The position numbers were made by a program, and so were the translations under genes. DNA of 64,000 nt from Escherichia coli (lineage in GTDB: Bacteria > Pseudomonadota > Gammaproteobacteria > Enterobacterales > Enterobacteriaceae), in the NCBI RefSeq assembly GCF_003334815.1, contig NZ_QOWO01000001.1; one strand, written 5' to 3'. This document shows positions 48,055-57,721 of the stretch, in pieces (the first letter of the stretch is position 1; each line of letters starts with the position of its first letter). A model generated the notes under the pieces. It made no database searches, had not been told where the DNA came from, and saw nothing but the letters and a program-made list of their open reading frames with translations.

Positions 48055-48351
48055 ATGTTCGAACAACGCGTAAATTCTGACGTACTGACCGTTTCTACCG
48101 TTAACTCTCAGGATCAGGTAACCCAAAAACCCCTGCGTGACTCGGTTAAACAGGCACTGAAGAACTATTTTGCTCAACTGAATGGTCAGGATGTGAATGA
48201 CCTCTATGAGCTGGTACTGGCTGAAGTAGAACAGCCCCTGTTGGACATGGTGATGCAATACACCCGTGGTAACCAGACCCGTGCTGCGCTGATGATGGGC
48301 ATCAACCGTGGTACGCTGCGTAAAAAATTGAAAAAATACGGCATGAACTAA
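48055..48351 (+). CDS. fis: Nucleoid-associated protein Fis
   Basis: ORF track 98 aa; exact Fis sequence ([15 protein letters not shown]...KKYGMN). Confidence 0.98.
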
Positions 48352-48363
48352 AGTCAAGCTGTA

Positions 48364-48373
48364 ACGGCATGAA
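48364..48373. repeat. Left copy of the 10-bp direct repeat ACGGCATGAA (candidate attL core)
   Basis: Exact match to 57684-57693; 13 bp after the fis stop. Confidence 0.55.
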
Positions 48374-48375
48374 AT

Positions 48376-48408
48376 TAAAGGGGCTATTTCAGCCCCTTTA
48401 CTTTTTGT
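48376..48408 (+). terminator. Rho-independent terminator serving fis; lies inside the island boundary
   Basis: aaaggggctatttcagcccctttactttttgtt, located between the left direct repeat and the tape-measure stop. Confidence 0.75.
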
Positions 48409-48428
48409 TGCAACCGTACTGACAACCC

Positions 48429-50702
48429 TTATGGTGTTTGCGCGCCATCTATCATCATGCTTCGCTGCCTTACTGCTTGTTGCTGTCGTAGTTGCTGTAT
48501 CACCTTCCGGGCTAATGCATCTTCATTCATACCAGGTTCTGCCTTCACGCTGATGTGGTACTGGTCGTTGCTATGCACCGTAGTGCCACCAGAGCGGTTG
48601 GCCAGTGCAGGTGACGGCAGGGCAGCACCAGAGGCAGTGGTTGCTGCTGGCTGCTGTACATCGTCGCGGAATGGTGCGGTAAAGAAATCTTTGGTTTTCT
48701 GCCACGCACCACCAGCAACATCAGACACGGCGTTTTTAAACTCCAGTGCCTTGTTGGTCAGGTTGCCAATGTTGTCAGAAACCCAAATGATCTTATCAAT
48801 CAGGAACGTGATCGGTGCGGTCACAAGCTCGATGCCAGCCGCCAGGGTCTTACCGAACGTCATCCCCATTTTACCGGCCTTATCCAGTTCCTCGCCGCTG
48901 TATTTGACCGGTTCGGTCAGTGACGTGAACCAGTTGAAAGCCGTCTTAACCGCAGCGCCCACGCCATCAATGACGGGCTTCAATGGCCCCATGCGCTCAT
49001 ACAGGCGATGCAGGGCATCGCTAAGCGGTTCCAGCCCGGATTTGATACCTTCACCCACGCCACCAAAAAAAGCCTTCACACCAGCCCAATGGCGGTAAAT
49101 CTGATAACCTGCCAGCGCCAGGCCAGCTACGGCAGCACCAACGCCAGTGGAAATGAACGCCGCACCGATGGCGCGCACGCCGGTAGCCACCGCAGGCAGG
49201 CCACGAGTGCTGGCCAGAACGGCGGATGCGTTCATGCGGGCAAACAGGCTGGACACGTTCAGCAATCCGCCTTTCAGGAACGTGAACGCAAAGCCAGCGG
49301 CGAACGTCGCCACACGCAGTGCCACCAGTGCACTGGAACCAATAACCACTGCTTTGGTCACGGTAGGGTATTCGCGCGCCAGTTCGGCAACCTTGCCGAT
49401 AACCGGGCCAACGGTAGCCAGAACGCCGTTGAATGCTGGCAGCAGCACTGTGCCGATCGTGACGCCCAGGTTAGACACACGGTTGTTGAAAATCTTAAGC
49501 TGCGCCGACGTTTTGGCGGTGGCTGCCTCATATTCAGCCTGCATAGAACCGGCATATTTGGTCTTGTCTTTGACCATATCCAGATTCTTTTGGTACGTAT
49601 CAAGCTGTGTCAGCATTGGTGCGATAGCGCCAATCGATTCCTTACCAAACAGTTGCGAAAGCGTTGCCGCCTGCATGTGTTTTGGCAGCTTGCTGATCTT
49701 GGACAGGATGACGCGGATTGTTTCATCGGCGTTCAGTTGCATTGATTTTGCAACCTGCTTGGATGTGAAGCCAAGCTGTTTAAACGCTTCACGCTGTGAC
49801 TTCGTGGCGGATGCGCCAGCGGTCAGGGATAGCAGCAGGTTTTTAATACCGGTGGCCGCAATCTCATTCTGCACGCCCATACCGCGCAGCGTTGCACCCA
49901 TCGCAGCGATAGAACCGGAAGCTGCACCAGCGACGCTGCCAAGTGGCCCGATGCGCTGCGTGATTTCCAGGATGTCTTTGGCTGATGCGGCGGTGTTGTT
50001 GCCCAGGTAGTTGATCTTGTCGGCCAGAACGTTCATCTGGTCCTGCGTCATCCCGAAGGCGGCGCGCATCTCTGCCATTGCCTGGCCTGCCTGGTCGGCG
50101 CTGACGTCAAAAGCCACACCCATTTTGATGGCCGATTCAGCAAACTTGGTTAGTTCGCTGGTGGCGATGCCTGATTGAGCACCAGCGGCAACAATCTTGC
50201 CGATTTCGTTGGCTGCCATCGGCATTTTGGTTGACATATCCTGGATAGCCTGGCCCATCTTAACCAGGCCGTCAGGGGTTTCGAAGTTGGCAACCTTGCG
50301 GATATCTGCCAGCGTATCTTCAAAATCCATAGCCTGTTTGATCGGTACAGCTACCGTTGCGCCAAGTGCGACAGTCCCCAGGATTCCTTCTTTGTAGCCT
50401 TGACGCTTCGCCAGGTTGCGTTCGCGGGCATCCTCCACGCGTTTCAGGCGTTCGGTGGCAGAACGAAGGCGTTCAACCTGCCCGACAACCGTTTGATAGC
50501 GGTCCTTCATGCGGGAGAATATCGCGCTATCCTGGCCATAACGCTTCATTGCTTCATTTAACTGGCGCTGTTCGCGCGACAGCTTAGAGATTGCGCTACC
50601 AATCTCGACGGTATTTTTCTTTACAGTTCCAAATGCACCACGAAGGCTGCCGGAAACGGCCCCACCAATCGTGATTGTTGCATTTAACTTCTTGTTGGCC
50701 AT
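48429..50702 (-). CDS. Phage tail tape measure protein (TP901-family core-like)
   Basis: ORF track 757 aa; N-terminal coiled coil, Ala/Gly-rich core (GNNTAASAKDILEITQRIGPLGSVAGAASGS...), hydrophobic C-terminal segments; called on recognised family features, not a search. Confidence 0.75.
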   Translation of the reverse strand: MANKKLNATITIGGAVSGSLRGAFGTVKKNTVEIGSAISKLSREQRQLNEAMKRYGQDSAIFSRMKDRYQTVVGQVERLRSATERLKRVEDARERNLAKRQGYKEGILGTVALGATVAVPIKQAMDFEDTLADIRKVANFETPDGLVKMGQAIQDMSTKMPMAANEIGKIVAAGAQSGIATSELTKFAESAIKMGVAFDVSADQAGQAMAEMRAAFGMTQDQMNVLADKINYLGNNTAASAKDILEITQRIGPLGSVAGAASGSIAAMGATLRGMGVQNEIAATGIKNLLLSLTAGASATKSQREAFKQLGFTSKQVAKSMQLNADETIRVILSKISKLPKHMQAATLSQLFGKESIGAIAPMLTQLDTYQKNLDMVKDKTKYAGSMQAEYEAATAKTSAQLKIFNNRVSNLGVTIGTVLLPAFNGVLATVGPVIGKVAELAREYPTVTKAVVIGSSALVALRVATFAAGFAFTFLKGGLLNVSSLFARMNASAVLASTRGLPAVATGVRAIGAAFISTGVGAAVAGLALAGYQIYRHWAGVKAFFGGVGEGIKSGLEPLSDALHRLYERMGPLKPVIDGVGAAVKTAFNWFTSLTEPVKYSGEELDKAGKMGMTFGKTLAAGIELVTAPITFLIDKIIWVSDNIGNLTNKALEFKNAVSDVAGGAWQKTKDFFTAPFRDDVQQPAATTASGAALPSPALANRSGGTTVHSNDQYHISVKAEPGMNEDALARKVIQQLRQQQAVRQRSMMIDGAQTP

Positions 50703-50723
50703 AATAATTGTGCTCTCAAGGAA

Positions 50724-50930
50724 TTAATTAAGTAAATTTTCTGCAAGGGTGTGTTCACCGATTGCCCGCAAGGCGGCAGCGGCCAGTTGCAGGGCGCATT
50801 CGGTGCGGTAGTCTCGCTGTTTCTGCATTTCCTCCGCTGTGTTGCACGCCAGAACTTTTGGCAGGACCATATCCACCAGTTCAGGCCAGGGGTTTGTTCC
50901 TTCCGGTTTTGTGTGAATACGGTCCAGCAT
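50724..50930 (-). CDS. Small hypothetical protein immediately upstream of the tape measure gene (possible tail assembly chaperone)
   Basis: ORF track 68 aa; same strand and tight spacing within the operon; no recognisable motif. Confidence 0.4.
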   Translation of the reverse strand: MLDRIHTKPEGTNPWPELVDMVLPKVLACNTAEEMQKQRDYRTECALQLAAAALRAIGEHTLAENLLN

Positions 50931-50939
50931 GGTGCCCCC

Positions 50940-51257
50940 TTATGCACTCCGTACCAGGATAGCGCCGCGCTTCACCGCCTGGCGTTTGGCCCGTTCACCG
51001 GAACTGATGCGGCTGGATGGTTGCCACTTCGTGCGTCCCAGGGCGGATGCGTGGCTTTCCGCTTCGTCACGCATGATGCGGCCCGCTTCATCGGTCATGT
51101 GTTCGAATGCGTTTAAACGGTTGCGAAGGCTTGCCAGCAGGTCGGCTGCTTCGTAGCTGATAGGGTTTTTCTCTGAAATGGTTTGGAAACGCTTTGTTTC
51201 GCTAAGGATCAAACGCGCTTCTTCTTTCATTGATTCGTACAGGTCATGTTTTTTCAT
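50940..51257 (-). CDS. Hypothetical protein (possible tail assembly chaperone); start uncertain
   Basis: ORF track 149 aa (50940..51389); preferred start at the internal MKKHDLYESMKEE (ATG at 51257, ~104 aa) because the upstream extension is low-complexity. Confidence 0.4.
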   Translation of the reverse strand: MKKHDLYESMKEEARLILSETKRFQTISEKNPISYEAADLLASLRNRLNAFEHMTDEAGRIMRDEAESHASALGRTKWQPSSRISSGERAKRQAVKRGAILVRSA

Positions 51258-51471
51258 AGTATTGGCCGCTAACAATAGTTGTTGATGATTAAGTGAGTGC
51301 GCGCTTTTAGGTGACAGGTGCGGCGCAACCGGTGTGGAATTAGTGGTGGTTTTGACCGTCCAGGATGACCACCAACCTGGTTCCAGCATCCATCGTCTGA
51401 GGAACGATGAAGGTTAAATTTGGCCGGTTATTTGGGGCACAGGGAACCGGTGAAACCTGTATTCTTGGCCA

Positions 51472-51636
51472 TTATTTGCCGTTCAGCCCGCTACTCAGAA
51501 ACTTTTCAATCACCTGGCTGCGTGAAGGGCGGATGCCTGTTCTGCGTTCCAGTTTGGCTTGCTCTCTTTCGACCTGGCGCACCAGGTCAGGGGCGAGGCG
51601 TACCGTTACGTGCTGGCGTGTTTCTTGTCGTTTCAT
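51472..51636 (-). CDS. Ribbon-helix-helix (CopG/Arc-like) DNA-binding protein, 54 aa; absent from the ORF track (below length cutoff)
   Basis: Hand-translated: MKRQETRQHVTVRLAPDLVRQVEREQAKLERRTGIRPSRSQVIEKFLSSGLNGK; beta-strand then two helices typical of RHH; starts 3 nt after the upstream gene stop. Confidence 0.55.
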   Translation of the reverse strand: MKRQETRQHVTVRLAPDLVRQVEREQAKLERRTGIRPSRSQVIEKFLSSGLNGK

Positions 51637-51639
51637 GGC

Positions 51640-51960
51640 TTAGTACCTGTTCATCCAGCTTTCGCGCTTCTGTTTCGGGCGCTGCTCGCGGTAGTGACTG
51701 CGCACCAGGGAAGCGAGGTAATTCACGGCGCGTTCAATCTGGTACTGCTTAAGCTCCGGGTAAGCCTTGCGAATCCATTTTTCAGCAGCGTCATCGCTGT
51801 AGATGAATCCTGACCAGCCAACCGGCTGCACTACGATGCGCGGTGTGTTTTCATCACCGTGGCGCACATACATGGCCACACCTTCGATAGCTGCCAGGAT
51901 TTCACCCGGCAGGGCAGCGCGCTCCGCTGCCGCTTTTTTGCTGCCCCACCACATGATCAA
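51640..51960 (-). CDS. Hypothetical protein, ~105 aa, translationally coupled to the downstream RHH gene
   Basis: ORF track 106 aa; TTG or ATG start overlapping the stop of the upstream 294-aa gene. Confidence 0.45.
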   Translation of the reverse strand: MIMWWGSKKAAAERAALPGEILAAIEGVAMYVRHGDENTPRIVVQPVGWSGFIYSDDAAEKWIRKAYPELKQYQIERAVNYLASLVRSHYREQRPKQKRESWMNRY

Positions 51961-52841
51961 GCCTTCCAGAACATAGTTGAGTCAGGCACCAGTGCGGATG
52001 CGTTCACCCACACAACGATTTCAACGGCACCATTCAGCACGCGGCGGGCGGTGACGCGGATTTCATCATCCAGGGCAACGGCTGCATTGCCGAAAGCGCC
52101 AATGATTGTGCTGGAAGTCTGGCCGCTGATTTCAGCGCGTACACCGTAGGCACGCAGAACGCCGTCTTGCAGTTCCAGGCCGGTGCAATCACCGCCAACA
52201 ATGGCTTTAACTTCATCAAAGCGCAGGTTTTTGGCTGCAATCTTCTGCGCCACTGCGGTGAATGACGGGCTGGCCAGCGTTTCCGCTGCGGTTTCCAGGT
52301 GGTTCAGCAGTACGAAATCAGCCAGGTCAGCAATTCCGCGTTCAATGGCGGTGTTGACCACTTCCAGCGTGGTATCGTCTGCGAAGTCGTGTTTCATCTG
52401 CTTGCGGCTAAGGGTGTAGCCCACGCCGTAAGCCGGTGCGTTGTTGTGGTTGAACGCTGATACCAGGTAAGGCAGGCCGCTCATGGTGATTTCTTCGCCG
52501 TCAGCCACTTTGGCGAACGCACCAGGGCGAACGACAACGAAGCGGTCAGCCACTTCGCGGCCAGTCGTTGCGCCGGTGTTGCCAGTCGGAGGCGTGGTCA
52601 TCGGGCCAGGGATGCGGATGATTTCAGCGCCTGCCTGTGCCACCAGTGAACGTTCAGCCAGAACAGCGTTGAAGGTGGTCTGCTTGCCGCCTTTCGGGGT
52701 CAGCACGTCATTCATGGACAGGTAGCGAACTGCTGCAGGTTCCACAGGGATGAATTGAGTAATGTCACCGTTGCCATCAGTGCGAATGTGGCCGCCCTGG
52801 TGGTTCAACGCGTCGTTGATAAGTTGAGATAAAACGTTCAT
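51957..52841 (-). CDS. Phage structural-like protein, 294 aa (major tail- or capsid-like; unassigned)
   Basis: ORF track 322 aa; start moved to MNVLSQLINDAL (ATG at 52841), which has a GGAG RBS 8 nt upstream; first gene of the minus-strand operon ending in the tape measure. Confidence 0.4.
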   Translation of the reverse strand: MNVLSQLINDALNHQGGHIRTDGNGDITQFIPVEPAAVRYLSMNDVLTPKGGKQTTFNAVLAERSLVAQAGAEIIRIPGPMTTPPTGNTGATTGREVADRFVVVRPGAFAKVADGEEITMSGLPYLVSAFNHNNAPAYGVGYTLSRKQMKHDFADDTTLEVVNTAIERGIADLADFVLLNHLETAAETLASPSFTAVAQKIAAKNLRFDEVKAIVGGDCTGLELQDGVLRAYGVRAEISGQTSSTIIGAFGNAAVALDDEIRVTARRVLNGAVEIVVWVNASALVPDSTMFWKA

Positions 52842-53229
52842 TAAAAATGCTCCGGTTGTTGTGCAATAAATCGTCTGGAATGACTTAAAGATATACAGTA
52901 ACCAGGCCGAACACAATAGCCACAATGTGAGCTTTTTAATGTAAAATCAGTAACTTATAACCATGAATACTTGCAAATAACCAGGCATAATCCGGCGTAA
53001 TCGATATTTACACATCTTTACAATTCAGCGTGTGTAAAACGTGTTCGCTTTATTTTGCAATCTCGCAAGTATGGTTCCAGTGCTTTGATAGGATTCACAT
53101 AAATGATTGATTTACTTGACGTAATCATAAAGTGAGTTTTGTAGGGGCACGCACAACGCGAATTACGCGGGACCAATGCCCCCGCAGGCTGTACCCCCCT
53201 CGGAAGTACCTTGACTTTTTTGGCAGCAG

Positions 53230-53540
53230 ATGGCGATGACACCTAATGTCACCATGACGGCGTTATGTTGGAAAGGTGTCATTAGGTGTCATAGCGGGAA
53301 ACACGCTGATTATTAAAGAAAAATACAAACAAGATAATGTAATGAATGACACCTGTGACACCATGACACCCATTTCTATAAAGTATAACGACCACTGTTA
53401 CATTATCACAGTGGTCGTTATTTTCTTTAAAAATGCTGTCATAGGTGTCATAGGTGTCATTAGTAATGTCGCAACCCTTGCGGGTTATGGCTTGAGAACA
53501 ATGACACCTGCCATGACACCTTATAAATTAATGACACCTA
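53230..53540. repeat. Iteron array: at least 10 perfect copies of the octamer ATGACACC/GGTGTCAT in both orientations, with a central 9-bp-arm palindrome; probable replication origin
   Basis: Perfect copies start at 53236, 53275, 53285, 53346, 53363, 53444, 53453, 53501, 53513 and 53531; variants at 53246, 53355 and 53435; palindrome gaccactgt-N9-acagtggtc at 53390-53416; located 3' of the primase gene. Confidence 0.7.
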
Positions 53541-53607
53541 GGCGTCACTTTGAAAATAAAAAAAGCCCCGGCATTCGCCAGGGTAATGGGCAACAACTGT
53601 TGTGATG

Positions 53608-53832
53608 TTATGATCGGATGAACGGCAAGATTTCAGCGGAATCCACTACCCTTATGCGGTAGCTGCATAGCAGGTTTTCACCCAACTTGGCCAGTTCCTG
53701 CTGCACCTCTGGCAGCCTATTGCGAGCATGGTCTACCGCTTCCTGTTCAGTGGCGAAACCCTCCATAATTTCGGTTTCGGTGTAGGTGCCGTGTTCCGGG
53801 TCAAAAGCAATGATATATGCGCGATAACTCAT
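53608..53832 (-). CDS. Small hypothetical protein between the primase gene and the iteron origin
   Basis: ORF track 74 aa; GAGG RBS 6 nt upstream of the ATG. Confidence 0.5.
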   Translation of the reverse strand: MSYRAYIIAFDPEHGTYTETEIMEGFATEQEAVDHARNRLPEVQQELAKLGENLLCSYRIRVVDSAEILPFIRS

Positions 53833-53841
53833 AGTATTACC

Positions 53842-55530
53842 TCAAAACTGGTGGTTAGGCCCATCAAAATAGCGATGGTCTTGCTGTCCAAAAACTTTCG
53901 GTGGCATTAGGTAAAAACGCCCTTTACTTGTTCTACGTGCATCCCTTCCTGTCAGTTTTCGCAGAATGTTACCGCACTGCGTTGCCTGGGATTTTGTTGG
54001 CCGATCCTGCCCAATAGACAACAGAACATCCGTTGCAGTCATTTCTATATATGCAGCCAGGCGATCACTGTTCCAATCAAAACGCGCCAATATCATTTCT
54101 TCAATCGGGTCAGTTTGCCCGTGCTGTTCGTTCACGACTTCCAGCATGGCTTCTTCATCACGGTCCAGCCACCAGCGTTCACCTGCTTCAAACCAGGAAA
54201 GAACTTCGGCCCATAATTGTTGTGTGTCTATGCCATGCTCGTAGTTAACGGCAGTTACAGGAATGGTCCACCAGCGCACGTTCCCGGTGTCATCCGCCAG
54301 GAAGTGTTTCGGGTTCACTGACGCAAAAAACACGGTGCGGCGCTGGTACTTCGATTCAAGCCGGTCATAAGGGCGGCGCAGGTCATCACGGTCCTGGCTG
54401 ATAAATGCTTTGAGCTTGGCAATATCCGCCTTGCGAAACGTCGCATCCAATTCGCCTAGCTCAACAAGCCAGTGACTAATTGCGCTGGCCACGCTGTCTT
54501 TATTGCCGGGGTCAATAGTTGCTCCCACCTTAACCAGGTTGCGATTGTCAGGGGGCAGAAGCGCTTTAAACCATGCTGTTTTACCCAGTGACTGCTCGCC
54601 CTGGAAAACCAGCACGCCTTTGGACCAGAAACCCGCTTCTAAGTAAGCAGCCGCCACGGCAGACAGCAACCAACGACGCACCAGCATGGCCAGCAGATCG
54701 CGACTGTAGTCATCTGGCGTGCTGATAGTATTCAGCAGGTCTGCAAATCGGCTTCGTCCATCCCATTCACGTTGATTGATGAAATCCCTGACAGGATTAT
54801 AAGTATTGCGCACAGCGATAGTTTTGATATGACCTTCAATATTACTCATTGGTAACCGGTTCAGTGCGGCGAGGCTTAAAATTTCACTCACAGCGCAGTT
54901 ATCGCGAGCATCTGAACCGCCACTAACGCCAGGTACTAAAACCTCAACGTCCTTGCTAATCTCATTATATTTTGCAGAAATGCTGTAGTTATCTAATAGA
55001 CGTTCAACATTAGGGCGTGTGTTTAAAGGCTGGCCATTGCTTCCAATATTTGGCCAGGTTGTCATTAATACAGGAGCCATATCGTGAATGTCTTTTACAG
55101 TTGCTGCGGCGGTTGCTCGTTCTTCTTTGCGCAGCATGCCCACCAGGCTTTCACCGCGTAGGGCGGCGTCTCTAAGCCTGTCCATGTTCCATTTTTCCGG
55201 TTCACGGTCAGTAATGCCTTTAAATAAACGGGCTTCCTTAACTCCAGCCACTGCCAGCTTGTCAGCAATAGTGCTGATTTGAAGTTGCTTAATATCACCA
55301 GCCAGATATACCCGCGCAGACCGGCGACCATCGTCGATAATTCGTAGATTATCTAAATCATCCAGTTGTCTTGGCCCAAGGTAGACAGGAGGAGTAGTGT
55401 CACCGGCAACTTGTTTACCCATTCCTTCTTCCCAGCCCTTGGCATGGCTCCAAGCGTCAGAACCGGCAAAAATAATTGCTTCCGTAAAAGGGTCTTTAGG
55501 TAATAGCTTAACGTTAGGCGCGTTTCTCAT
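53842..55530 (-). CDS. Satellite-type primase / replication initiator with P-loop NTPase domain
   Basis: ORF track 562 aa; Walker A motif GEQSLGKTAW; sits between alpA and the iterons as in P4 alpha / PICI pri-rep arrangements. Confidence 0.65.
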   Translation of the reverse strand: MRNAPNVKLLPKDPFTEAIIFAGSDAWSHAKGWEEGMGKQVAGDTTPPVYLGPRQLDDLDNLRIIDDGRRSARVYLAGDIKQLQISTIADKLAVAGVKEARLFKGITDREPEKWNMDRLRDAALRGESLVGMLRKEERATAAATVKDIHDMAPVLMTTWPNIGSNGQPLNTRPNVERLLDNYSISAKYNEISKDVEVLVPGVSGGSDARDNCAVSEILSLAALNRLPMSNIEGHIKTIAVRNTYNPVRDFINQREWDGRSRFADLLNTISTPDDYSRDLLAMLVRRWLLSAVAAAYLEAGFWSKGVLVFQGEQSLGKTAWFKALLPPDNRNLVKVGATIDPGNKDSVASAISHWLVELGELDATFRKADIAKLKAFISQDRDDLRRPYDRLESKYQRRTVFFASVNPKHFLADDTGNVRWWTIPVTAVNYEHGIDTQQLWAEVLSWFEAGERWWLDRDEEAMLEVVNEQHGQTDPIEEMILARFDWNSDRLAAYIEMTATDVLLSIGQDRPTKSQATQCGNILRKLTGRDARRTSKGRFYLMPPKVFGQQDHRYFDGPNHQF

Positions 55531-55795
55531 ATCGCACCCCGCGTTTTAACTCCAGATACATCGCCCATGATTCAGAATCGCTGATGCGAAACGGCACCAG
55601 GCTATCAGCCATAGCGGCGTGACGTGAAACAATAGTCCACGGGCGGTTTACACCTTCGCGAATGCATGCTTGCAACAATAATTGTGCTGCCGCCATACGC
55701 TGGGCGGTAAGTTCGCCAACGGTTAACTGGCGCTGTGGGTTACGCAACAGGCTGTTATAGCGACTGATAGCCTGATTTACGGTTGTTTTCTTCAT
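55514..55795 (-). CDS. Small hypothetical protein directly upstream of the primase gene, overlapping its start
   Basis: ORF track 93 aa; GAGGTGG RBS; 17-nt overlap with the primase start. Confidence 0.5.
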   Translation of the reverse strand: MKKTTVNQAISRYNSLLRNPQRQLTVGELTAQRMAAAQLLLQACIREGVNRPWTIVSRHAAMADSLVPFRISDSESWAMYLELKRGVRYEKRA

Positions 55796-55803
55796 AAGCC
55801 ACC

Positions 55804-55983
55804 TCAGCGCTGTACTGGCTGGCGGCTTTCAAGCCACGCCATAACATCTTTGCGCCGCCAGGCCACGCGTTTTGGCCCTAATTTTATGCAATTAGGAAAC
55901 GTGCCAGCCTGGATATAGCGCCAGATAGTCATGCGGGATAATGTTGTTAGTGTTGTGACTTGCTTAGCAGTCAGTAATTCCAT
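55804..55983 (-). CDS. alpA: AlpA-family phage transcriptional regulator (MerR-like HTH), 59 aa; absent from the ORF track (below length cutoff)
   Basis: Hand-translated: MELLTAKQVTTLTTLSRMTIWRYIQAGTFPNCIKLGPKRVAWRRKDVMAWLESRQPVQR; classic AlpA signature; GAGGG RBS. Confidence 0.7.
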   Translation of the reverse strand: MELLTAKQVTTLTTLSRMTIWRYIQAGTFPNCIKLGPKRVAWRRKDVMAWLESRQPVQR

Positions 55984-56277
55984 CTTACGGCCCTCAAAAC
56001 ATGGCCGGTGGATATGTGGTCTGTAATGATTTATGATTATGTTGCGTTAACAAAGAACGCGACCATTACAGCCTTCACCGGCTTTTTGGTATTAAGGGGT
56101 TCGGTTTTCTGTTTGGCGACGTGAACCGATCCCCGCCTTATTCAAGCCCTCAGTTCTGCTGGGGGCTTTTTATTACTACATGACAATAATACTCAAATTG
56201 TATCAGCAGTAAATACCCTTTAAATTCATAAACTTAACTGCAAATAACGCTACATAACTCTATATAATCATCAATTT

Positions 56278-57513
56278 TTAATTATCTGATTTTAAAAGGT
56301 TTATTTTTTCTAAATATTTTATCCATTTGTCCAAGGCTAACCGTTTTTCCGGGATGTACTGGCTACGGTTGTACACCGCCATCACTCCTGGCATTGAGTG
56401 GCCCAGCAACTGTTCAACCACATGCGGGGCTATCCCCAAGTTATTTAGACTGGTGGCAAAAGTGCGGCGCAGGTCATGCAACGTCCACGGCGTTGAATGC
56501 TCTAATCGTCTGTATAAGATACGCCCCCACTGGCTGACAGCTTCGGGTTTCTTCATTTCACCAAGCAGCATTCCGCTATCAAGATGATTTTGGCGTAGCT
56601 GTAAAATAAATGGCTGTATAGATTCAGGCACGGGTCTGATGATTTTCTCCCCACCCTTGCTATGTTCTCGCGGAACTGTCCAAATCCATTCTTTCACGTT
56701 CCATTCCGACCATGTCGAAAGACGAATTTCTTGTGTTCTTGCACCAAACACTATTAGCAATTTTAAAAGCGCGGTGTAGTAAGGTAGAAACGCATATTCG
56801 CTTTTTAGCGCATTCCAAAGGCCACTAAGTTCTTCAGAAGTTAAAACACGATCACGTTTTGCCTGCTTTCTTCCAACATCAGTAACTTTGATATCCTCCA
56901 GCGCATCACTGTAAACATCGTGCAGCCTGCGGTTGTGAATCAACGCCTGCTTGCAGTTACCTAATATGTAGCCGCTTGCTACCGGCGCGACTTTTTTGAT
57001 TCTGCTAAATGTCTCCATCCATCTTGCTTTAGAGCACTGTTCAAGTGGCAATTCGCCGATGAAAGGATAAATATGTCTTTCGAATTGGCGTCTATGCCTT
57101 TCAAAGTTGACCCGGTTTTCCGCCGCGTACTCATTAATCCAGCGTTCCAATGCTTCCCTGATAGTGACAGGTTTCATGGTTTTTGCTGACTCTTGGTCAA
57201 ACTGGTCTTTAGGATCTAGATTATGAGCAAGCCACCGTTTGCATTGGTCGCGTTTCACCCTCGCCTCAGCAAGAGATAAGGCAGGATACTTGCCCAGCAC
57301 TAGCGTCAAAGTATTGGCGCTTTTATGCTTATTCTTATAACGGAACAACCATTGGATGTTATTGGCCGGTCTCTTCTCGCCATCAAGGATTTTGCGCCTT
57401 GATGGTGTAACGCGAACAGAAAGGCTGCCACCGTCAGCAACATCAAAAGGTTTTTCGATGACTTTGCGGGTTAACGCACGCAATTGAACATCTGAGAGTT
57501 TATTTTCGGCCAT
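56278..57513 (-). CDS. int: Tyrosine recombinase, P4-type integrase family
   Basis: ORF track 435 aa; start taken at MAENKLSDVQLRAL (ATG at 57513, 411 aa); P4-integrase-like N-terminus (DGGSLSVRVTPSRRK) and C-terminal catalytic motifs (HDLRRTF...LGHS...VYNR...Y). Confidence 0.85.
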   Translation of the reverse strand: MAENKLSDVQLRALTRKVIEKPFDVADGGSLSVRVTPSRRKILDGEKRPANNIQWLFRYKNKHKSANTLTLVLGKYPALSLAEARVKRDQCKRWLAHNLDPKDQFDQESAKTMKPVTIREALERWINEYAAENRVNFERHRRQFERHIYPFIGELPLEQCSKARWMETFSRIKKVAPVASGYILGNCKQALIHNRRLHDVYSDALEDIKVTDVGRKQAKRDRVLTSEELSGLWNALKSEYAFLPYYTALLKLLIVFGARTQEIRLSTWSEWNVKEWIWTVPREHSKGGEKIIRPVPESIQPFILQLRQNHLDSGMLLGEMKKPEAVSQWGRILYRRLEHSTPWTLHDLRRTFATSLNNLGIAPHVVEQLLGHSMPGVMAVYNRSQYIPEKRLALDKWIKYLEKINLLKSDN

Positions 57514-57683
57514 AGAGTTAATGACAACCTTTTTGACAACTGTATGCAGGGAGTAACTGATAACTGATGATACAATGCGAGCCAATAAAAAATAAATATC
57601 TCTTTCCGCATCAATTATTTATGATGAATACAAATTATCTAGAGTGATAATAAATTACGTATAATGACTCTGTATTTTACAAT

Positions 57684-57693
57684 ACGGCATGAA
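57684..57693. repeat. Right copy of the 10-bp direct repeat ACGGCATGAA (candidate attR core)
   Basis: Exact match to 48364-48373; ~170 bp beyond the integrase start. Confidence 0.55.
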
Positions 57694-57721
57694 CTAATTC
57701 AGGTTAGCTAAATGCTTGATT

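What the first reader, a model, noticed from the sequence alone, without database searches (positions are those of the whole stretch)
53608..53832. 74-aa unknown gene wedged between the primase and the origin
It has a good RBS and is co-oriented with the primase. Small proteins at this position in satellites are frequently helper-interference or accessory factors. No motif recognised.
Basis: seen in the sequence. Interest (0 to 1): 0.35.

Follow-up and report, generated by a model that had tools for sequence, protein, structure and literature searches.

The report
Small conserved satellite gene, function unknown
This is a real, conserved 74-amino-acid gene at the end of the replication operon of a phage-parasite island in E. 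coli; it has no known relatives and its job is still unknown, so it is a modest lead, not a discovery.

Summary
The ORF exists as described, on the minus strand at 53608-53832. Its GAGG ribosome site overlaps the stop codon of the upstream helicase gene. A conserved terminator and the iteron origin follow it.

It is a genuine gene:
- It is 74-75 aa in every relative, down to 34% identity.
- dN/dS is 0.14-0.25.
- It always sits between the replication protein (Rep) and the origin.

The island (48352-57697) is a 9.35-kb PICI (phage-inducible chromosomal island) inserted at the fis gene. Integrase-less relatives are 9-kb plasmids.

The protein is acidic, with a confidently predicted beta-beta-alpha-beta fold and a disordered, conserved E-I-[IL]-P-F tail. 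It matches no Pfam, PHROG, NCBIfam, PADLOC or PDB family. The "HicB family" label on a UniProt orthologue fails every test I ran.

Two deep allele classes are swapped as a discrete cassette. The swaps are independent of Rep family, iterons, integrase and late genes. Jilinvirus phages carry the closest primase and tape-measure homologues but have no copy of this gene.

My best guess (0.4) is a satellite-specific protein that binds a helper or host partner. The main rival is a generic replication cofactor or regulator. The function is untested, and interest is modest.

The parts
53608..53832 (-). orf74: the 74-aa CDS. The protein is acidic (pI 4.7) with a predicted beta-beta-alpha-beta fold and a conserved C-terminal E-I-[IL]-P-F tail.
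   Evidence: Coordinates and translation. dN/dS 0.14-0.25. Fisher tests. AF2 pLDDT 86. Charge.
53840..53843 (-). Shine-Dalgarno GAGG. It overlaps the TGA stop of the Rep gene, 7 nt before the ATG, which suggests translational coupling.
   Evidence: Sequence. The same F-codon/TGA/GG arrangement, with a 9-11 nt gap, is seen in all relatives.
53558..53583 (-). Rho-independent terminator (CCCTGGCGAATGCCGGGG followed by T7) that ends the alpA-orf93-Rep-orf74 operon.
   Evidence: Terminator scan. Conserved in 10 loci, with the stem retained in variants.
53591..53602 (-). Near-palindrome CAACAGTTGTTG directly after the stop codon. It is conserved in most relatives and its role is unknown.
53842..55530 (-). 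No primase domain was detected. The C-terminus ends in ...HQF.
   Evidence: Pfam PF05272 only. PHROG primase/helicase families. PDB 7pds 'similar to D. nodosus vapE', E = 2e-16.
55514..55795 (-). orf93: a small helical protein of unknown function that overlaps the Rep start by 17 nt.
55804..55983 (-). AlpA-like HTH regulator, the first gene of the early operon.
   Evidence: Pfam Phage_AlpA in orthologues.
53233..53545 (.). Iteron field (ATGACACC / GGTGTCAT in both orientations) around an AT-rich centre. This is the putative origin.
   Evidence: Iteron type follows the Rep C-terminal domain.
56278..57585 (-). Tyrosine integrase of the island.
48337..48351 (+). att identity block TACGGCATGAACTAA at the 3' end of fis (one island border).
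   Evidence: The consensus is given in PMC10111431.
57683..57697 (+). Second copy of the att identity block (the other island border). The island therefore spans 48352-57697.
48429..50702 (-). Tape measure protein (757 aa), the last gene of the island.
   Evidence: TIGR01760, 5e-71. phrog_28, 3e-129. 58-60% identity to the tape measure protein of Jilinvirus phages.

Best explanation
orf74 encodes a small, acidic, soluble protein that is specific to this satellite and plasmid group. It is made together with the replication initiator (Rep) from the alpA-led early operon (AlpA control is assumed by analogy with other PICIs), through an SD that overlaps the Rep stop codon.

It does not belong to the system that sets origin specificity (the Rep DNA-binding domain and the iterons). 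Instead it behaves as a self-contained cassette that is exchanged between elements.

The most likely mode of action is protein binding. The folded beta-beta-alpha-beta body carries the face that differs between allele classes. The conserved, disordered E-I-[IL]-P-F tail may provide a constant contact. The partner would lie outside the element's own Rep/ori pair, most plausibly a replication-associated protein of the helper phage (Jilinvirus-like) or of the host. The effect would be to favour satellite replication, or to restrain the helper, during induction.

Shown here: the gene is real, probably translationally coupled to Rep (inferred from the SD that overlaps the Rep stop codon), specific to the satellites, acidic, folded, and exchanged as a cassette.

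Inferred only: that it binds a protein, the identity of the partner, and the direction of the effect.
For: - Real gene under purifying selection. The position and coupling signal are conserved in every relative.
- All family members are acidic, with net charge -2.4 to -8.4. This argues against DNA binding.
- Confident small fold with a disordered but conserved tail.
- Not tied to Rep or the origin. A class-A allele (88% identical overall to the window's; 92% over a 71-residue tblastn match) follows an unrelated DUF5906 helicase with GGTTACAAC iterons in Proteus plasmid pW47-1. A class-B allele (41-42% identical) follows a Rep whose aligned part is 83-87% identical to the window's, with the same iterons.
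- Discrete allele replacement. Between L006 and L026 the flanks are 85-100% identical, while the orf74 body is 48-61% identical.
- Absent from the phages with the closest Rep (65% identity) and tape measure protein (59%). In HeidiAbel the primase gene runs straight into its terminator. The gene is therefore not an intrinsic cofactor of this helicase family.
Against: - No partner has been identified.
- An AlphaFold2 model of orf93, Rep and orf74 joined by linkers gave pTM 0.43 and left the orf74 tail below pLDDT 50. This neither supports nor excludes binding to Rep.
- Tight coupling to Rep and the fixed position next to the origin fit an intrinsic replication role equally well.
- The two deep allele classes could reflect old neutral divergence plus recombination, not selection for specificity.
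- orf74 alleles do not track tape-measure alleles, which I used as a proxy for the helper. L002 and L004 carry identical orf74 but tape measure proteins that are 60% and 42% identical to the window's.
- No expression or phenotype data exist.
Confidence: 0.4

Rival explanations
1. orf74 is an intrinsic replication accessory or regulator of the satellite replicon. It could be an adaptor that recruits host replisome parts, which the phage supplies for itself (own DnaB-like helicase and SSB) and the satellite lacks. Or it could be a copy-number brake analogous to P4 Cnr.
For: - It is the last gene of the Rep operon, with an SD that overlaps the Rep stop codon (translational coupling inferred), and lies directly before the origin in all elements. 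These include relatives that are true 9-kb plasmids, where copy-number control matters.
- A natural in-frame stop-to-Trp readthrough variant (P0002, 99 aa) joins the Rep C-terminal residues to orf74.
- HeidiAbel encodes its own helicase and SSB, and the satellites do not.
Against: - The allele does not co-vary with Rep family, Rep DNA-binding domain or iterons.
- The homologous phage primase works without such a gene.
- There is no similarity to Cnr/DUF5375, and cnr sits upstream of alpha.
- The fused AlphaFold2 model shows no confident docking.
Confidence: 0.28
2. orf74 is an accessory 'moron' unrelated to replication, for example a counter-defence protein or a factor that benefits the host. 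It would merely use the 3' end of the early operon as an expression slot.
For: - Cassette-like exchange with deep allele classes inside nearly identical flanks.
- Small acidic proteins are typical of inhibitors (general knowledge).
- No link to any other module of the element.
Against: - Unlike typical morons, it is present in every member of the group, always at the same position, and never replaced by a different gene.
- There is no PADLOC hit.
Confidence: 0.15
3. orf74 is a HicB-like antitoxin, as a UniProt entry labels an orthologue.
For: - AFDB entry A0ABD7PCE9 (Klebsiella variicola, 97% identical) is named 'HicB family protein'.
- The start of the helix (T-E-x-E-A) loosely resembles HicB, which is my own reading of the sequence.
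Against: - No HicB Pfam match.
- hhalign against E. coli HicB gives probability 0.4%.
- There is no hicA-like neighbour and no DNA-binding C-terminal domain.
Confidence: 0.03
4. The ORF is a chance reading frame and not a gene.
For: Many chance ORFs of similar length occur in the window. No family hit was found.
Against: dN/dS is 0.14-0.25 with a significant synonymous excess. Length and frame are kept down to 34% identity. The RBS and terminator are conserved.
Confidence: 0.02

Closest known systems
P4 Cnr (ORF106, DUF5375), the copy-number regulator of satellite P4
   Same: It is a small satellite-encoded protein in the same operon as the primase-helicase. It has no counterpart in the helper, and it acts by binding a protein (alpha), which I state from the literature as I remember it.
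   Different: - cnr lies upstream of alpha, the position occupied here by orf93. In P4, alpha is followed directly by its terminator and crr.
- There is no sequence similarity.
- From memory, Cnr acts through the DNA-binding part of alpha. The orf74 allele is independent of the Rep DNA-binding domain and of the iterons.
HicB antitoxin family (N-terminal domain)
   Same: It is a small alpha/beta domain, and a database label on an orthologue names this family.
   Different: It fails the HMM, profile-profile, fold and gene-neighbourhood tests.
SaPI/PICI helper-interference proteins (Ppi, PtiA/B/M, CpmA/B, Rpp)
   Same: They are small satellite-specific proteins that work by binding helper proteins (established literature).
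   Different: Those genes lie in the late or packaging operon and are unrelated in sequence. orf74 lies in the early replication operon. No PHROG match was found.
Lambda Ren (the small gene directly downstream of replication genes O and P)
   Same: This is a positional analogy only, recalled from memory. It is a small non-replicative accessory gene appended to the replication operon.
   Different: It was not compared here, beyond the absence of any phage hit. It belongs to a different element type.
PurS / generic beta-beta-alpha-beta half-ferredoxin-like folds

Membership tests
HicB antitoxin family | Match to the Pfam HicB or HicB-like profiles | tested here: not met
   No HicB family appears among hits up to E = 10, for the protein or for any of 13 family members.
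HicB antitoxin family | Profile-level similarity to a bona fide HicB | tested here: not met
   hhalign of alignment A2 against E. coli K-12 HicB gives probability 0.4% over 14 columns.
HicB antitoxin family | Fold match to solved HicB structures | tested here: not met
HicB antitoxin family | An adjacent hicA toxin gene | tested here: not met
   The neighbours are the Rep gene and the terminator/origin in all loci.
P4 Cnr / DUF5375 | Sequence match to DUF5375 or to P4 ORF106 | tested here: not met
   No Pfam hit. hmmsearch of the A2 profile against the six-frame ORFs of P4 gave a best E of 0.9.
P4 Cnr / DUF5375 | Gene immediately upstream of the primase-helicase gene | tested here: not met
   orf74 is downstream of Rep. 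cnr is upstream of alpha.
Gram-negative PICI, fis-integrating group (applies to the island, not to orf74) | int, alpA and the primase/Rep gene all in one direction, with the origin downstream of Rep | tested here: met
   The organisation is as described in PMC6092414 and PMC10111431.
Gram-negative PICI, fis-integrating group (applies to the island, not to orf74) | att identity block TACGGCATGAACTAA at the 3' end of fis, repeated at the far end of the island | tested here: met
   Exact copies at 48337-48351 and 57683-57697. Chance expectation is 0.12 matches at up to 2 mismatches. The consensus comes from PMC10111431.
Gram-negative PICI, fis-integrating group (applies to the island, not to orf74) | Induction, replication and packaging that depend on a helper phage | not testable with these tools
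   The only evidence is circumstantial: circular, permuted contigs of the excised form (L019) and homology to Jilinvirus phages.
Protein-coding gene (real versus chance ORF) | Purifying selection, and conserved frame and length across diverged relatives | tested here: met
   dN/dS 0.14-0.25. Fisher p between 6e-10 and 7e-4. Length 74-75 aa down to 34% identity.

The most novel reading that the evidence does not exclude
Orf74 is an exchangeable specificity cassette whose conserved tail, E-I-[IL]-P-F, imitates acidic tails that end in ...IPF or ...PF. Examples are the bacterial SSB C-terminus (DDDIPF, recalled from memory) and the C-termini of the Rep and primase proteins of these elements and of Jilinviruses. 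These end in ...PF or ...QF even when the helicase families differ, for example PDDDKPF in HeidiAbel.

On this reading the tail plugs the pocket of a host or helper replication protein that normally receives such tails. Replisome components would then be diverted to the satellite, or the helper primase would be blocked. The class-specific body would choose the target.
Probability: 0.08. Interest if true: 0.7.

Novelty: new variant of a known kind. Interest (0 to 1): 0.32.

Why it matters
PICI-type satellites are described as having a replication module of Rep (or Pri-Rep) plus an origin. This group carries a third element that is always present. It is a tiny gene that appears translationally coupled to Rep, that the related phages lack, and that is swapped between elements as a two-class cassette.

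If it acts on the helper or on the host replisome, it would be a new type of hijacking or interference factor that works at the replication stage. It would also be a compact reagent for studying Jilinvirus or host replication proteins. If it is a copy-number or loading cofactor, it would help explain how the same 9-kb element can live either as an integrated island or as a plasmid.

Either outcome can be tested with one deletion and one expression clone. As things stand, it is a validated hypothetical gene, and nothing about it overturns current views.

Tried and rejected
- Family searches found nothing. I searched PHROGs, Pfam (single sequence and 13-member alignment), NCBIfam, PADLOC and the PDB sequence profile.
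- An exhaustive phmmer search of 1.84 billion representatives found only 4 clusters at 50% identity. Profile iteration added only close relatives.
- I tested the HicB idea, which was my own first impression and is also a UniProt label, and rejected it.
- I rejected the P4 Cnr analogy on position and on sequence.
- I first thought the orf74 allele co-segregated with orf93 and the N-terminal domain of Rep. The Proteus plasmid pW47-1 and the L006/L026 comparison disproved this.
- An AlphaFold2 model of orf93, Rep and orf74 joined by GGGGS linkers (34-row alignment) gave pTM 0.43, and the orf74 tail stayed disordered. The tool returns no PAE or contact map, so the result is uninformative, not negative.
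- Programmed readthrough from Rep into orf74 is rejected. The two genes are in frame in the window and in L008 (9-nt gap) but not in L002 or L006 (10- and 11-nt gaps).
- Rfam found no RNA family near the gene.
- I searched the literature for satellites that carry a tape measure protein, and for Jilinvirus satellites. I found no description of this group. PMC10111431 covers fis PICIs in general.

Full report
**The observation**

The ORF lies on the minus strand at 53608-53832 and encodes 74 aa:
MSYRAYIIAFDPEHGTYTETEIMEGFATEQEAVDHARNRLPEVQQELAKLGENLLCSYRIRVVDSAEILPFIRS.

- It starts 9 nt after the TGA of a 562-aa gene (53842-55530).
- The SD GAGG (53843-53840) overlaps that stop codon.
- After the TAA come a near-palindrome (CAACAGTTGTTG, 53602-53591) and a G+C hairpin with a T7 run (53583-53558).
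- A 310-bp field of ATGACACC/GGTGTCAT repeats around an AT-rich core follows (53233-53545).

**It is a real gene**

- Homologues are 74-75 aa, without indels or stops, down to 34-49% identity.
- dN/dS against Klebsiella and other orthologues is 0.14-0.25 at dS 0.4-1.5. The synonymous excess is significant, with Fisher p = 2e-5, 6e-10 and 7e-4.
- The F-codon/TGA/GG coupling signal and the terminator hairpin are conserved in all relatives, and stem pairing is retained in variants.
- In E. coli the gene is single-copy and chromosomal in 48 of 5,426 complete genomes. One copy is truncated and one has an apparent 1-nt deletion.
- A few clusters from E. coli carry altered or truncated C-termini (P0005, P0006, P0015). 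One variant (P0002, 99 aa) joins the Rep C-terminal residues to orf74 through an in-frame stop-to-Trp change.

**Context**

The gene belongs to a 9.35-kb island bounded by exact copies of TACGGCATGAACTAA, at the 3' end of fis (48337-48351) and at 57683-57697. This is the att block of the 'fis PICIs' described by Mageeney et al. (PMC10111431).

- The early genes are int, alpA, orf93, Rep and orf74. The last four form a compact operon with overlapping or coupled junctions.
- Beyond the origin lie five or six satellite-specific ORFs and a genuine tape measure protein.
- The 'primase' matches only the VapE-like helicase domain in Pfam. Its nearest solved relative is PDB 7pds.
- Its residues 125-562 are 83% identical to a 760-aa PriCT_2-Toprim-VapE protein of a related element. 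Its first ~110 residues are a different domain.

**The protein**

- Every family member is acidic, with pI 4.5-5.4.
- AlphaFold2 with a 13-sequence alignment gives pLDDT 86. It predicts strands at 2-11 and 16-26, a helix at 29-49 and a strand at 55-63. The tail is disordered but conserved, A-E-I-[IL]-P-F-x-R-x.
- No Pfam, PHROG, NCBIfam, PADLOC or PDB sequence match was found.
- At E <= 0.001 AFDB50 returns only the orthologue, which is labelled 'HicB family protein'. That label fails every test: no HicB HMM hit, hhalign probability 0.4% against E. coli HicB, no HicB among the fold matches, and no hicA neighbour.

**Distribution**

The family is very narrow. It has 4 clusters at 50% identity among 1.84 billion representatives, and 21 clusters at 90%. 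Named sources are E. coli, Klebsiella, Cronobacter, Salmonella and Proteus. All members lie in one element type with the same gene order. That type occurs in two forms:

- fis-integrated islands;
- integrase-less circles of 8.9-9.4 kb. These appear as contigs with 77-nt or 30-nt terminal overlaps and as finished 'non-mobilizable' plasmids of E. coli, Salmonella and Proteus, one of them a dimer.

**Evolutionary behaviour**

This is the most informative result. Iteron type follows the Rep C-terminal domain, as expected. The orf74 allele follows nothing.

| Comparison with the window | Rep | Iterons | orf74 |
|---|---|---|---|
| L002 (Klebsiella) | 39% identical in the core, 29% in the C-terminal domain | different (CTCGCCACC) | 78% identical |
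| L017 / L008 | L017 core and C-terminal domain 83-85% identical; L008 C-terminal fragment 87% | same | 41-42% identical |
| Proteus plasmid pW47-1 (L026) | unrelated DUF5906 helicase | GGTTACAAC | 88% identical overall (92% over a 71-residue tblastn match) |

L006 has the same Rep tail as pW47-1 (34 of 35 residues) and the same iterons, yet carries a class-B allele that is 49% identical. Along the L006/L026 alignment the flanks are 85-100% identical, while the orf74 body drops to 48-61%.

orf74 therefore exists in at least two deep classes, 34-49% identical to each other, and is exchanged as a discrete cassette. Residues conserved across classes are the N-terminus MSY, D11, G15, F26-A-T, A32, G51, Y58, V63 and the E-I-x-x-F tail. 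Strand 2 and the second half of the helix are class-specific.

**Relation to phages**

- No phage record among 50,697 encodes a homologue (tblastn, E <= 1).
- The closest relatives of the Rep core (65% identity) and of the tape measure protein (58-60%) both lie in the same small myoviruses: ep3, ECOO78, ECO1230-10, Arya and HeidiAbel Bas97, i.e. Jilinvirus and related genera.
- In HeidiAbel the primase gene is followed directly by its terminator. No six-frame ORF of that phage or of P4 matches the orf74 profile.

orf74 is therefore specific to the satellites and is not an intrinsic cofactor of this helicase family.

**Test for a partner inside the element**

I modelled orf93, Rep and orf74 joined by linkers, using a 34-row alignment. 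The model gave mean pLDDT 67 and pTM 0.43. The orf74 body stayed folded (pLDDT 74-83) and its tail stayed below 50. No contact map is returned, so this shows no support for docking but does not exclude it.

**Interpretation**

Shown:
- a real small gene whose SD overlaps the Rep stop codon, so translational coupling is inferred;
- an acidic, folded product;
- specific to the satellites and always present in this element type;
- independent of the Rep/ori specificity determinants;
- exchanged as a two-class cassette.

Inferred:
- it works by binding a protein;
- the partner is common to all these elements, so it is the helper or the host and not the element's own Rep/ori;
- the class-specific face sets specificity.

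I put 0.40 on an early effector directed at the helper or host that favours the satellite at the replication stage. I put 0.28 on a generic replication cofactor or copy-number regulator, 0.15 on an unrelated accessory or counter-defence gene, 0.03 on HicB-like, and 0.02 on a chance ORF.

One speculative lead rests on memory only. The tail resembles the SSB C-terminal DDDIPF. Every Rep or primase of these elements and phages also ends in ...PF or ...QF.

**Verdict**

The gene is a validated orphan that adds a third, constant component to a PICI-type replication module. This is a new variant of a known kind and of modest interest until a phenotype is found.

Noticed in passing
window 48429-50702 (-), and the whole island 48352-57697: This 9.35-kb fis PICI ends in a genuine 757-aa tape measure protein. 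Both that protein (58-60% identity) and the Rep helicase core (65%) have their closest phage relatives in the same small myoviruses: Jilinvirus HeidiAbel Bas97, ep3, ECOO78, ECO1230-10 and Arya. These are candidate helpers. I found no paper that describes a satellite carrying its own tape measure protein, or a satellite of Jilinviruses.
   Followed up: partly
L013-L017, L025 (NZ_CP100673.1), L026 (NZ_CP104987.1); also CP054330.1, NZ_CP083588.1 and CP077066.1: Integrase-less relatives of the island exist as circular elements of 8.9-9.4 kb. Some are assembly contigs with terminal overlaps, and some are finished 'non-mobilizable' plasmids in E. coli, Salmonella and Proteus, one of them a 17.4-kb dimer. 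They share the late genes and the tape measure gene, and carry a full PriCT_2-Toprim-VapE or DUF5906 Rep. The same satellite type therefore seems to live either integrated at fis or as a plasmid.
   Followed up: partly
window 53842-55530 (-): The 'primase' has no detectable primase domain. Its residues 125-562 are 83% identical to a 760-aa PriCT_2-Toprim-VapE protein. Its first ~110 residues are a different domain, predicted beta-alpha-beta and possibly a degenerate Toprim. That domain is 72-90% conserved among integrated islands even where the helicase core is only 39% identical. The recombination breakpoint lies near residue 110-125.
   Followed up: partly
window 53276-53605 (+): RefSeq annotates a 109-aa 'hypothetical protein' (WP_000052065.1) across the iteron field. 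Its frame contains stop codons in relatives with the same iterons (L022, L008, L017), and its sequence is simply the translated repeats (MTP...). It is almost certainly not a gene.
   Followed up: yes
C-termini of Rep/primase proteins: window 53845-53862 (-); L002, L016, L017, L026; L024 36668-36685: All Rep and primase proteins of these elements and of HeidiAbel end in ...PF or ...QF, often after acidic residues (PDDDKPF, GDGEDKPF). This holds even when the helicase families differ (VapE versus DUF5906). The pattern recalls the SSB C-terminal tail. Alternatively, it may only mark the recombination junction of the orf74 cassette.
   Followed up: no
window 53591-53602 (-): A near-palindrome, CAACAGTTGTTG, lies directly after the orf74 stop codon. 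It is conserved in most relatives and is a perfect CAACAATTGTTG in L006. Its role is unknown. It could be a protein-binding site or a recombination junction.
   Followed up: no
window 55514-55795 (-): orf93 is a four-helix protein that overlaps the Rep start. It is the most conserved protein among the integrated islands (75-88% identity) and has no family match. It occupies the position that cnr holds in P4.
   Followed up: partly
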